Positions 21,051 through 21,552 are shown, counted from the stretch's first letter. The stretch: DNA of 23,283 nt from Lachnospiraceae bacterium (GCA_017555455.1 JAFZGJ010000195.1:1-23283); one strand, 5' to 3'. Numbers and translations: made by a program. Notes: generated from the letters alone by a model not told the origin.

Positions 21051-21518
21051 ATGATAATGAGTCTTGATGTATCTACTAAAAGTACAGGTTTAGCAATTTT
21101 TGATAATAATAAATTAATTTCATATAAATTAATTACTGCAAGCTCCTCTGATTTAATTAAAAGAATATAGAAAATAACAAAAGAGATTCAAGAAACAATA
21201 GAAGAATACCCTAAAATTAATAAATTAATTCTCGAAGAAGTTCGCCCCGAAGATTCTATTGGATTAAACACTAATACTCATCGTGCTTTAATGTGGGCAT
21301 AGGCCGCAATCGCGTTCATGGTTCATGATAATTACCCTAAGATTACAATGGACTATATTTATCCTGGGACTTGGCGCAAAGATTGTGGAATTAAAACTGG
21401 CCGAGGAATAAAAAGAGAAATGCTTAAAAAAGCAGATATTCAATTTGTAAAAGATAATTATAATTTAGATGTAAATGATGACATCGCAGATGCTATTTGT
21501 ATAGGCCATGCCTATTAG
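21051..21518 (+). CDS. ruvC: RuvC-like Holliday-junction resolvase with two in-frame TAG codons (21168-21170, 21300-21302) and a TAG terminator; either a recoded gene or a pseudogene
   Basis: All three pieces are in one frame. MIMSLDVSTKSTGLAIFD carries the first catalytic Asp, LILEEV the Glu, and DDIADAICIGHAY the terminal acidic pair and His. Only TAG interrupts the frame. The next in-frame TAA is at 21546-21548. Confidence 0.55.
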
Positions 21519-21552
21519 ATGAATAATACTGGTCATAATTGGGCATAAAAAA

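What the first reader, a model, noticed from the sequence alone, without database searches (positions are those of the whole stretch)
21051..21548. RuvC-like resolvase gene contains two in-frame TAG codons and ends in TAG, a candidate amber-recoded gene
A single frame runs from the ATG at 21051, 19 nt after promoter P4. It carries, in the correct order, the RuvC catalytic motifs SLDVS...ILEEV...DDIADAICIGHAY. It is interrupted only by TAG at 21168 and 21300 and ends at TAG 21516. The next in-frame TAA is at 21546, immediately before the bidirectional terminator. No TAA or TGA interrupts it and there are no frameshifts. A decaying pseudogene would be expected to show mixed stop types and indels.
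Basis: partly seen in the sequence, partly recalled or inferred. Interest (0 to 1): 0.8.

Follow-up and report, generated by a model that had tools for sequence, protein, structure and literature searches.

The report
Amber-recoded phage Holliday junction resolvase gene
This is an intact phage DNA-junction-cutting enzyme gene in which the stop codon TAG is read as glutamine. That is a known habit of some gut phages, and here it begins exactly where the replication genes end and the late genes start.

Summary
The frame from ATG 21051 has TAG at 21168, 21300 and 21516 and TAA at 21546, with no TAA or TGA inside.

The gene is a 165-aa RuvC-type Holliday junction resolvase read with TAG = Gln (genetic code 15). 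Its real end is the TAA, not the third TAG. Independent metagenome assemblies of close relatives keep TAG at codons 40 and 84. Synonymous sites are saturated (dS > 1.3), yet dN/dS is 0.05-0.08, also downstream of each TAG. Standard-code relatives have CAA or CAG at the near-invariant Gln 84. Close relatives have CAA where the window has its third TAG. Across the lineage, TAG swaps mainly with CAA (65) and CAG (7).

The 23 replication genes upstream have no in-frame TAG and never end in TAG. The resolvase gene and the three complete convergent late genes each carry TAG and end in TAA (a fourth, cut by the window end, carries none).

No suppressor tRNA was found in the window or in the stretches of related contigs I could fetch. 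That part of the mechanism is inferred.

This is a new member of a known kind, like the code-15 gut phages of Borges et al. and the Phass-1 group.

A by-product may be new. More distant relatives appear to read TAG as Glu, and one lineage as Trp.

The parts
100..20965 (+). Block of 23 replication and nucleotide-metabolism genes written compatibly with the standard code. They include a RecA-like ATPase, a DnaB-type helicase, a primase, a UvrD-like helicase, split PolIII alpha, guanylate kinase, NrdD, NrdG and dUTPase.
   Evidence: There is no in-frame TAG in 6,637 codons. Stops are TAA 19 times, TGA 4 times and TAG never. Functions come from Pfam hits on orthologues in L001 and L084 and from tblastn.
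20973..20996 (.). Terminator hairpin after the dUTPase gene, which isolates the resolvase gene from upstream transcription.
   Evidence: Nine-pair stem with a T-run. It is conserved in L001, L003 and L084.
21004..21032 (+). Sigma-70/SigA-type promoter: TTGACA, 17 nt, TATTAT, with a TG extended -10.
   Evidence: It matches 11 of 12 positions and is the best site in the scanned region. It is nearly invariant across relatives whose synonymous sites are saturated.
21038..21045 (+). Ribosome-binding site AGAGGTGA, 5 nt upstream of the ATG.
   Evidence: Read directly from the sequence and conserved in relatives.
21051..21548 (+). RuvC-like Holliday junction resolvase gene, 165 aa when TAG is read as Gln.
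   Evidence: 731 homologues were found, the best 97% identical and 165 aa long. It matches PHROG 827, Holliday junction resolvase, at E = 2.8e-19. An AlphaFold2 model of the 97%-identical P0001 (pLDDT 90) matches RuvC structures at TM 0.70-0.79. dN/dS is 0.05-0.08.
21168..21170 (+). In-frame TAG, codon 40, read as Gln.
   Evidence: TAG at the same codon in L001, L002, L003, L084 and L085. CAA in standard-code relatives L004, L014, L022 and L037, and also in L040, which carries TAG elsewhere.
21300..21302 (+). In-frame TAG, codon 84, at a Gln invariant in 46 homologues in the helix ALMWAQAAIAF.
   Evidence: CAA or CAG in 20 of the 22 IMG/VR relatives examined. TAG in the window, L001, L003, L085, L009 and L055. 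L084 has no TAG there and its product P0010 has Gln. Aligned residues are Q in 56 of 65.
21516..21518 (+). In-frame TAG, codon 156, read through. It is not the gene's stop.
   Evidence: The same codon is CAA in L084 and L085 and TAT in L001. L001 and L085 instead carry a TAG four codons later.
21546..21548 (+). True stop codon, TAA.
   Evidence: All close relatives end here, after a conserved NWA tail.
21549..21577 (.). Bidirectional intrinsic terminator shared by the resolvase gene and the convergent late operon.
   Evidence: 13-pair hairpin between A8 and T6, -17.7 kcal/mol, z = -3.2. Conserved in relatives.
21562..21879 (-). 105-aa HExxH (metalloprotease-like) protein gene, last gene of the convergent late block, with an in-frame TAG at 21655-21657.
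   Evidence: A 105-aa orthologue is called in L001, L003, L084 and L085. It matches PHROG 1233 and, weakly, PHROG 87. The TAG aligns to Q in 22 of 27 homologues.
21879..22508 (-). 209-aa protein gene of unknown function with an in-frame TAG at 22161-22163.
   Evidence: It forms one open frame under code 15. Orthologues of 209-240 aa are called in relatives.
22508..22936 (-). 142-aa protein gene (PHROG 20016) with an in-frame TAG at 22910-22912.
   Evidence: PHROG E = 4.9e-48 over the full length. The TAG aligns to Q in 29 of 29 homologues.
22969..23283 (-). 3' part of the next late gene (PHROG 16490), cut by the window end.
   Evidence: The orthologue is 211-281 aa in relatives.

Best explanation
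The window comes from a large (probably 100-150 kb), low-GC tailed phage of gut Bacillota that uses genetic code 15 for its late genes.

The gene at 21051-21548 encodes a functional 165-residue RuvC-type Holliday junction resolvase. Its three TAG codons are translated as glutamine and translation stops at TAA 21546.

Shown: the TAGs are conserved sense codons equivalent to CAA/CAG. TAG is absent from the replication genes, both as a sense codon and as a stop. TAG appears only from the resolvase gene onward, into the convergent late genes.

Inferred: a phage-encoded tRNA with a CUA anticodon, located elsewhere in the genome, does the decoding, as in the described relatives.

Also inferred: the gene sits alone between two terminators behind a near-consensus host-type promoter. 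In-frame ambers would then hold back resolvase synthesis until the suppressor accumulates. Branched replication intermediates would be cut only when packaging begins.
For: Homologues are 163-169 aa long and cover the whole frame, including the tail after the third TAG.

Five independent assemblies of close relatives (84-97% aa identity) carry TAG at codon 40. Four of them also carry TAG at codon 84, and none has any other stop.

dN/dS is 0.05-0.08 overall and 0.04-0.06 downstream of codon 84, with dS of 1.3-1.5.

Codon 84 is CAA or CAG in 20 of 22 IMG/VR relatives examined. Codon 156 is CAA in L084 and L085.

Lineage-wide, TAG interchanges with CAA 65 times and CAG 7 times, against 11 or fewer for any other codon. 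Nearly all conserved sites opposite TAG are Q.

In relatives L001, L003, L009, L034 and L055 the replication genes have almost no TAG, while late genes carry 1-37 TAGs each. No called or long late ORF ends in TAG.

In the window, TAG makes up 0 of 217 TAG+CAA+CAG codons upstream against 6 of 30 in the right-end genes, p = 2e-6.

The fold and family are RuvC.

The promoter, RBS and both terminators are conserved.

The described distant relative Phass-1 carries three tRNA(CUA) genes (PMC10607447). IMG/VR contig 3300028048_000269, whose ATPase is 61% identical to the window's, carries a tRNA(CUA) in a 13-tRNA array.

The late-gene bias and the timing hypothesis are described by Borges et al. (bioRxiv 10.1101/2021.08.26.457843, read).
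Against: No tRNA, and no release-factor or tRNA-synthetase gene, was seen in the window. ARAGORN and Rfam both found nothing.

No tRNA(CUA) was found in the fetched parts of the closest relatives' contigs, L001-L003, L084 and L085.

There is no peptide evidence.

The glutamines shown for close homologues in the protein database come from gene calling with code 15, so they are not independent. I therefore relied on DNA-level comparisons.

The timing role is inference only. In relative L085 a homing-endonuclease gene abuts the resolvase start, so the separate promoter is not universal.
Confidence: 0.88

Rival explanations
1. TAG is decoded without a phage tRNA. Either the host itself reads TAG as a sense codon, or it carries a natural amber suppressor or leaky termination, and the phage simply exploits that.
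For: No tRNA(CUA) was found in the window or in the fetched stretches of the closest relatives. The literature notes that some recoded phages lack detectable suppressor tRNAs (PMC10607447 introduction; Borges et al.).
Against: If TAG were a sense codon throughout infection, the 23 replication genes should use it too. They have 0 TAG among 217 TAG+CAA+CAG codons, and they also avoid TAG as a stop. That pattern fits a decoding capacity that appears during infection.

Related phages do carry tRNA(CUA). Only about 25-50 kb of a genome likely larger than 100 kb was visible.
Confidence: 0.08
2. TAG is a sense codon here but stands for an amino acid other than glutamine, such as Glu, Trp or pyrrolysine.
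For: More distant relatives of the same assemblage appear to read TAG as Glu or Trp. ARAGORN labels CUA tRNAs as tRNA-Pyl.
Against: In this lineage TAG aligns to Gln at nearly every conserved site: 56 of 65, 29 of 29, 22 of 27 and 11 of 11. It interchanges with CAA/CAG 72 times, and no GAA, GAG or TGG appears among the ten commonest swap partners.
Confidence: 0.03
3. The gene is a decaying pseudogene, or the TAGs are assembly or sequencing errors.
For: Under the standard code the frame is broken into pieces of 39, 43 and 71 codons.
Against: The same TAG positions occur in five independent assemblies from different samples. dN/dS is about 0.05 downstream of the TAGs, and there are no indels, TAA or TGA. 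Neighbouring late genes show the same TAG-only interruptions.
Confidence: 0.01

Closest known systems
Code-15 (TAG to Gln) recoded gut phages: crAss-like, Lak, and the Agate, Jade, Sapphire, Garnet and Amethyst clades (Borges et al., bioRxiv 10.1101/2021.08.26.457843; Yutin et al. 2021, PMC7886860; proteomic validation by Peters et al. 2022, PMC9523058)
   Same: In-frame TAG stands for Gln. Recoding is concentrated in late (structural and lysis) genes, while the DNA replication genes stay compatible with the standard code. TAG is avoided as a stop. Close relatives use different codes. The genome sizes of relatives (100-160 kb) and the mix of codes 11, 4 and 15 resemble the Agate clade.
   Different: Clade membership is defined by terminase phylogeny, and the window has no terminase gene. 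No suppressor tRNA was seen here. A resolvase as the first recoded gene, alone behind its own consensus promoter, is not mentioned in the papers I read (no occurrence of 'resolvase' or 'Holliday').
Phage Phass-1 (OQ749652) and the proposed genus Phassvirus (Babkin et al. 2023, PMC10607447)
   Same: Phass-1 is a 136-kb Caudoviricetes genome from human gut with predicted Clostridia hosts. It uses code 15 in 41 ORFs, has 36 tRNA genes including three tRNA(CUA), and encodes a protein of about 3,150 aa like the 3,186-3,224-aa protein in the window's close relatives. It shares PolIII alpha, NrdD/NrdG, an ATPase, an exonuclease and a RuvC-like gene.
   Different: Amino-acid identity is only 26-38%, and GC is 44.5% against 30.6%. 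Gene order differs. The Phass-1 RuvC-like gene (57681-58190) is annotated as an uninterrupted ORF. The window is not from the same genus.
RuvC of Lactococcus phage bIL67 (PDB 4ktw) and bacterial RuvC (4ep4, 4ld0, 1hjr); Pfam PF02075 and PF07066 (DUF3882)
   Same: The RNase-H-like RuvC fold is shared (TM 0.70-0.79). The length is about 160 aa, and acidic residues are conserved in SLD, LEEV and DDIAD.
   Different: Sequence identity is 12-21%. The window protein falls just below both Pfam gathering scores. The known enzymes are encoded in the standard code.
Enterococcus phages EF1/EF5/VRE9 and SPbeta-like Bacillus phages
   Same: These are the nearest cultured relatives by PolIII alpha (40-43% identity). 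Their genomes are 125-142 kb, and in EF1 the polymerase gene is likewise split by a homing endonuclease.
   Different: The Phass paper reports no recoding in EF1. They are too distant to serve as a genomic model.
Laboratory amber (sus/am) phage mutants grown on suppressor hosts
   Same: In-frame TAG codons are read by a suppressor tRNA, often inserting Gln.
   Different: Those are single engineered or selected lesions. Here TAG is a regular, conserved, selected codon in many genes of wild phages from several samples.

Membership tests
RuvC-type Holliday junction resolvase | RNase-H-like RuvC fold | tested here: met
   An AlphaFold2 model of the 97%-identical P0001 (pLDDT 90.4, pTM 0.87) was searched with Foldseek. 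The top 14 PDB hits are all RuvC, including phage bIL67 RuvC 4ktw, at E about 1e-8 to 1e-6 and TM 0.66-0.79.
RuvC-type Holliday junction resolvase | Catalytic acidic residues in order (E. coli D7, E66, D138, D141; the numbering is recalled from memory) | tested here: met
   E62, E63, D143, D144 and D147 are invariant and D6 is nearly invariant in 46 homologues, and all are present in the window protein. Mapping them onto the E. coli tetrad is by motif position, not by superposition.
RuvC-type Holliday junction resolvase | Profile match above the curated threshold | tested here: inconclusive
   Pfam PF07066 scores 21.0 bits against a cut-off of 22.1, and PF02075 scores 18.2 against 22.2. PHROG 827, Holliday junction resolvase, matches at E = 2.8e-19. 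Many homologues carry precomputed PF02075 or PF07066 hits. A PDB sequence-profile search found no RuvC.
RuvC-type Holliday junction resolvase | Cleavage of four-way DNA junctions | not testable with these tools
   This needs a biochemical assay.
Genetic code 15 (TAG = Gln) phage | In-frame TAG in conserved genes that remain under purifying selection | tested here: met
Genetic code 15 (TAG = Gln) phage | TAG positions correspond to Gln (CAA/CAG) in relatives | tested here: met
Genetic code 15 (TAG = Gln) phage | TAG not used as a terminator | tested here: met
   None of the 27 complete genes in the window ends in TAG once read-through is accepted. The same holds in L001 and L003.
Genetic code 15 (TAG = Gln) phage | Suppressor tRNA with a CUA anticodon in the genome | tested here: inconclusive
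   There is none in the window or in the fetched parts of the close relatives' contigs. The rest of the genome is unavailable. tRNA(CUA) is present in more distant relatives.
Genetic code 15 (TAG = Gln) phage | Peptides with Gln at TAG positions | not testable with these tools
   This needs proteomics.
Proposed genus Phassvirus | High nucleotide identity (the three proposed members share 80-86%) and shared synteny with Phass-1 | tested here: not met
   Megablast gave no match. Amino-acid identity is 26-38%, and GC and gene order differ.
Agate clade (Borges et al.) | Placement in the large-terminase phylogeny | not testable with these tools
   There is no terminase gene in the window or in the fetched relatives, and the clade's sequences are not held.

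The most novel reading that the evidence does not exclude
The ambers in this resolvase gene may be one state of a recoding that this phage assemblage keeps re-inventing with different meanings.

Among the 100-160-kb relatives found through the same gene, TAG behaves as Gln in the window lineage. In many rumen and gut contigs it behaves as Glu, even at the catalytic LEEV glutamates of RuvC, and it swaps with GAA/GAG 235 times. In one lineage it behaves as Trp. Others use TGA as Trp or the standard code.

If this is real, the meaning of the amber codon is a fast-evolving trait set by the phage. The resolvase would be a recurrent target because its translation must wait for the phage's own suppressor.

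I found no report of TAG read as Glu or Trp in phages in the literature I could search.
Probability: 0.55. Interest if true: 0.8.

Novelty: new member of a known kind. Interest (0 to 1): 0.38.

Why it matters
For annotation, standard-code gene calling breaks this resolvase and every late gene of the phage into fragments. Code 15 restores them.

Biologically, the window captures the exact switch point between genes the host can translate at once and genes that need the phage's altered decoding. A DNA-junction resolvase sits first on the recoded side, behind its own strong promoter. That makes it a compact, testable case for the idea that stop-codon recoding times late protein synthesis.

The wider value lies in the by-product. 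The same gene family gives a ready-made comparative series of phages with TAG read as Gln, Glu or Trp and TGA read as Trp.

Tried and rejected
1. Megablast of the region against GenBank phages gave no match. tblastn with the resolvase found only three weak records.

2. The hunt for the suppressor tRNA failed in several places. ARAGORN found nothing on the window. It found one unrelated tRNA in 122 loci around RuvC and the ATPase gene, and none in L123.

3. I tried to walk along the closest relatives' contigs through the giant 3,224-aa protein. The search was swamped by repeat words and returned only unrelated leucine-rich-repeat proteins.

4. An exact look-up of the window's first protein found nothing on record.

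5. One walking step on an IMG/VR code-15 relative gained 9.5 kb of late genes and no tRNA.

6. A profile search of PDB sequences found no RuvC, so fold comparison was needed.

7. I tried to assign the amino-acid identity of relatives' CUA tRNAs by similarity and BLAST. The result was inconclusive, because all share an anticodon arm one base away from the tRNA-Trp arm.

8. My crude coding-density classifier of codes mislabelled weakly recoded loci, including the window. I did not use it for conclusions.

9. Rfam found no group I intron in the polymerase-gene insertion.

10. Readings considered and rejected: pseudogene, assembly error, laboratory amber mutant and code 4. TGA is a normal stop here, used by 4 genes and never in frame.

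Full report
**Observation.** The frame opening at ATG 21051 reads MIMSLDVS...IKRI*KITKE...ALMWA*AAIAF...CIGHAY*MNNTGHNWA*. The three internal stops are all TAG, at 21168, 21300 and 21516. The first TAA is at 21546, and there is no TGA, TAA or frame break.

A near-consensus promoter lies at 21004-21032 (TTGACA, 17 nt, TATTAT, with a TG extension). It matches 11 of 12 positions and is the best site in the scanned 3 kb. A GAGGTG ribosome-binding site follows. A terminator hairpin at 20973-20996 precedes the promoter. A 13-pair hairpin at 21549-21577, between an A-run and a T-run, follows the gene (-17.7 kcal/mol, z = -3.2).

**What the gene is.** A database search returned 731 homologues of 163-169 aa. 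The best, P0001, is 97% identical and exactly 165 aa, which is the length obtained by reading through all three TAGs to the TAA. The tail after the third TAG is conserved and contains an invariant Trp, so the gene ends at 21548.

Pfam matches fall just under threshold: DUF3882 scores 21.0 against 22.1, and RuvC 18.2 against 22.2. PHROG 827, Holliday junction resolvase, matches at E = 2.8e-19. An AlphaFold2 model of P0001 (pLDDT 90.4) hits only RuvC structures at the top. These include Thermus, Deinococcus and E. coli RuvC and Lactococcus phage bIL67 RuvC, at TM 0.70-0.79. Acidic residues D6, E62/E63, D143/D144 and D147 are invariant or nearly so in the family.

**Are the TAGs sense codons?** The glutamines shown for close homologues come from gene calls made with code 15. 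The look-up tool reported that the loci do not translate to the query under table 11. I therefore compared the DNA directly.

- Five independent assemblies from different samples (L001, L002, L003, L084, L085; 84-97% aa identity) carry TAG at codon 40. Four of them also carry TAG at codon 84, and none has any other stop.
- Between the window and L001, L084 or L085, synonymous sites are saturated (dS 1.3-1.5). Even so, dN/dS is 0.05-0.08 for the gene and 0.04-0.06 for the part after codon 84. The sequence downstream of every TAG is therefore translated and under selection.
- Codon 84 is a near-invariant Gln. It is CAA or CAG in 20 of 22 IMG/VR relatives examined, and TAG in two other recoded ones.
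- Codon 40 is CAA in five relatives.
- Codon 156 is CAA in L084 and L085 and TAT in L001. L001 and L085 carry a new TAG four codons later.
- Over all orthologous genes of the lineage, TAG interchanges with CAA 65 times and CAG 7 times, against 11 or fewer for any other codon.
- At conserved sites the residue opposite TAG is almost always Q.

TAG is therefore read as Gln.

**Context.** The window's 23 plus-strand genes at 100-20965 form a replication and nucleotide-metabolism block. They contain no in-frame TAG in 6,637 codons. They end in TAA 19 times, in TGA 4 times and never in TAG.

Under code 15, the short ORFs to the right of the resolvase gene merge into a convergent minus-strand block. 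It holds genes of 105, 209 and 142 aa, each with one TAG and a TAA stop, plus a partial fourth gene. These lengths match the genes called in the relatives.

In relatives, this block continues into tail-type genes and a protein of about 3,200 aa, with 1-7 TAGs per gene. In the IMG/VR relative L009/L123 there are up to 37 TAGs per gene.

TAG accounts for 0 of 217 TAG+CAA+CAG codons upstream, against 6 of 30 in the right-end genes (p = 2e-6). The window thus straddles the boundary between standard-compatible and recoded genes, and the resolvase is the first recoded gene.

**Mechanism.** The decoding of TAG as Gln is shown by comparison. The agent is not shown. No tRNA is present in the window or in the 6-20 kb stretches I could fetch from the closest relatives' contigs.

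More distant relatives do carry CUA tRNAs. Phass-1 has three, two of them directly upstream of nrdD. IMG/VR contig 3300028048_000269, whose ATPase is 61% identical to the window's, has one in a 13-tRNA array. Several other relatives have one next to the tail module.

The complete avoidance of TAG in the replication genes argues against a host that reads TAG constitutively. It argues for a decoding capacity that arises during infection, as Borges et al. proposed.

The resolvase gene is a monocistronic unit. Its terminator, promoter, RBS and terminator are conserved even where synonymous sites are saturated. A plausible reading is that it is transcribed by host RNA polymerase, but that only a 39-residue stub is made until the suppressor is available. 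That would delay junction cleavage until packaging. This is inference, and in L085 a GIY-YIG gene abuts the start codon instead.

**Comparison with what is known.** Reassignment of TAG to Gln in gut phages, its bias to late genes and the coexistence of codes among close relatives are all established. The sources are Yutin 2021, Borges 2021/22, Peters 2022 and Cook 2024.

A group of about 135-kb code-15 phages of predicted Clostridia hosts, Phass-1, was described in 2023. The window is only distantly related to it: 26-38% aa identity and 30.6% against 44.5% GC.

The nearest cultured phages are Enterococcus EF1/VRE9 and SPbeta-like phages, at 40-43% identity on PolIII alpha. MAG bins holding relatives are labelled Bacilli, Anaeroplasmatales and Clostridia. 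This is only a weak hint at the host.

**Verdict on the finding.** It is real and correctly interpreted, but it is a new member of a known kind.

**By-product.** I tabulated the residue opposite TAG in all recoded relatives fetched. Three classes emerged.

- A Gln class: the window lineage, L009, L034/L159, L055, L099/L103, L175 and L198.
- A Glu class, including L040, L042/L128, L066/L127, L087, L089, L135, L156, L157, L166, L171, L176, L179, L182, L185, L190, L192, L199 and L200.
- A Trp class: L044/L162.

In the Glu class, TAG sits at the invariant LEEV glutamates of RuvC (VLE-TAG-VRQ in L042, VIM-TAG-TAG-VRQ in L066). It aligns to E in 41 of 41 and 30 of 30 homologues at baseplate-protein sites. 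It interchanges with GAA or GAG 235 times, against 43 for CAA or CAG.

In the Trp class, TAG replaces the W of the motif STG-W, and TAG (75) outnumbers TGG (32) in the late ORFs.

Other relatives use TGA at Trp positions (L007, L023).

The CUA tRNAs of Glu-class contigs have C1-G72 or G1-C72 pairs, or a long D-loop like their neighbouring tRNA-Glu. However, similarity and BLAST did not settle their identity.

I found no paper in the held library that reports TAG read as Glu or Trp in phages. Such reassignments appear there only for ciliates. This deserves its own follow-up.

Noticed in passing
L042:9995-10471, L066:9995-10468, L040, L127, L128, L087, L089, L135, L156, L157, L166, L171, L176, L179, L182, L185, L190, L192, L199, L200 (IMG/VR contigs such as 3300021399_003843, 3300031853_000211, 3300021256_000064, 3300021400_001206): In these relatives TAG behaves as glutamate, not glutamine. 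It occupies the invariant catalytic LEEV glutamates of RuvC. It aligns to E at conserved sites (for example 41 of 41 and 30 of 30). Within the lineages it swaps with GAA 169 times and GAG 66 times, against CAA 38 and CAG 5. I found no report of TAG read as Glu in phages in the searchable literature.
   Followed up: partly
L044:9950-10516 and L162 (IMG/VR contig 3300028805_000058, 146 kb): In this lineage TAG appears to be read as tryptophan. Eleven conserved sites opposite TAG are W. The RuvC motif STG-W has TAG in place of W. In late ORFs TAG (75) outnumbers TGG (32), and genes end in TAA or TGA.
   Followed up: partly
L007:1632-2141, L023:9995-10501 and similar loci (L026, L030, L038, L043): Other relatives carry TGA at conserved Trp positions of RuvC and of late genes, which is code 4. 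One gene family therefore spans the standard code, TGA = Trp and three apparent meanings of TAG.
   Followed up: partly
L182:1839-1912, L185:1669-1742, L200:5-79, L263:3731-3806, L328:2101-2174; Phass-1 62445-62610 and 105747-105820: The CUA-anticodon tRNAs of L182/L185, L263, L328 and two of the three in Phass-1 share the anticodon arm GGTCTCTAAAACC. This is one base from the tRNA-Trp (CCA) arm. They differ in the acceptor stem and D-arm. The exact pattern, with a T-arm, occurs in more than 120 IMG/VR contigs. L263 also has a predicted tRNA with a UUA anticodon at 2021-2094, a possible ochre suppressor.
   Followed up: partly
window 13572-14760: The PolIII alpha (dnaE-type) gene is split. Exon 1 ends at GIGPQMG, followed at once by TAA at 13569-13571. 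The coding sequence resumes at about 14760 (SFSIIHALAYSFIG-MQTLY). The 1.2-kb insert carries a GIY-YIG-type ORF at 13775-14617. Relative L084 has one uninterrupted 1,280-aa gene. This looks like an intron with a homing endonuclease, but Rfam finds no group I intron.
   Followed up: partly
L085:2443-5220 (Logan SRR27277138_8402): In this close relative the dUTPase gene appears as two fragments around a 371-aa HTH ORF. A GIY-YIG homing-endonuclease gene overlaps the resolvase start codon. A serine recombinase and a reverse transcriptase (RVT_1) lie among the late genes. All this suggests heavy traffic of mobile elements around the resolvase locus.
   Followed up: no
L084:4725-7856: NrdD is 1,043 aa in this relative, against 740-754 aa in the window and L001. 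This suggests an intein or insertion in the ribonucleotide reductase gene.
   Followed up: no
L087, L089 (IMG/VR contigs 3300021400_001652 and 3300021387_001163): By the ATPase gene, these are the window's closest IMG/VR relatives (62-63% identity). They belong to the Glu class and have TAG codons within 10 kb of the replication ATPase. Recoding there may not be confined to late genes.
   Followed up: no
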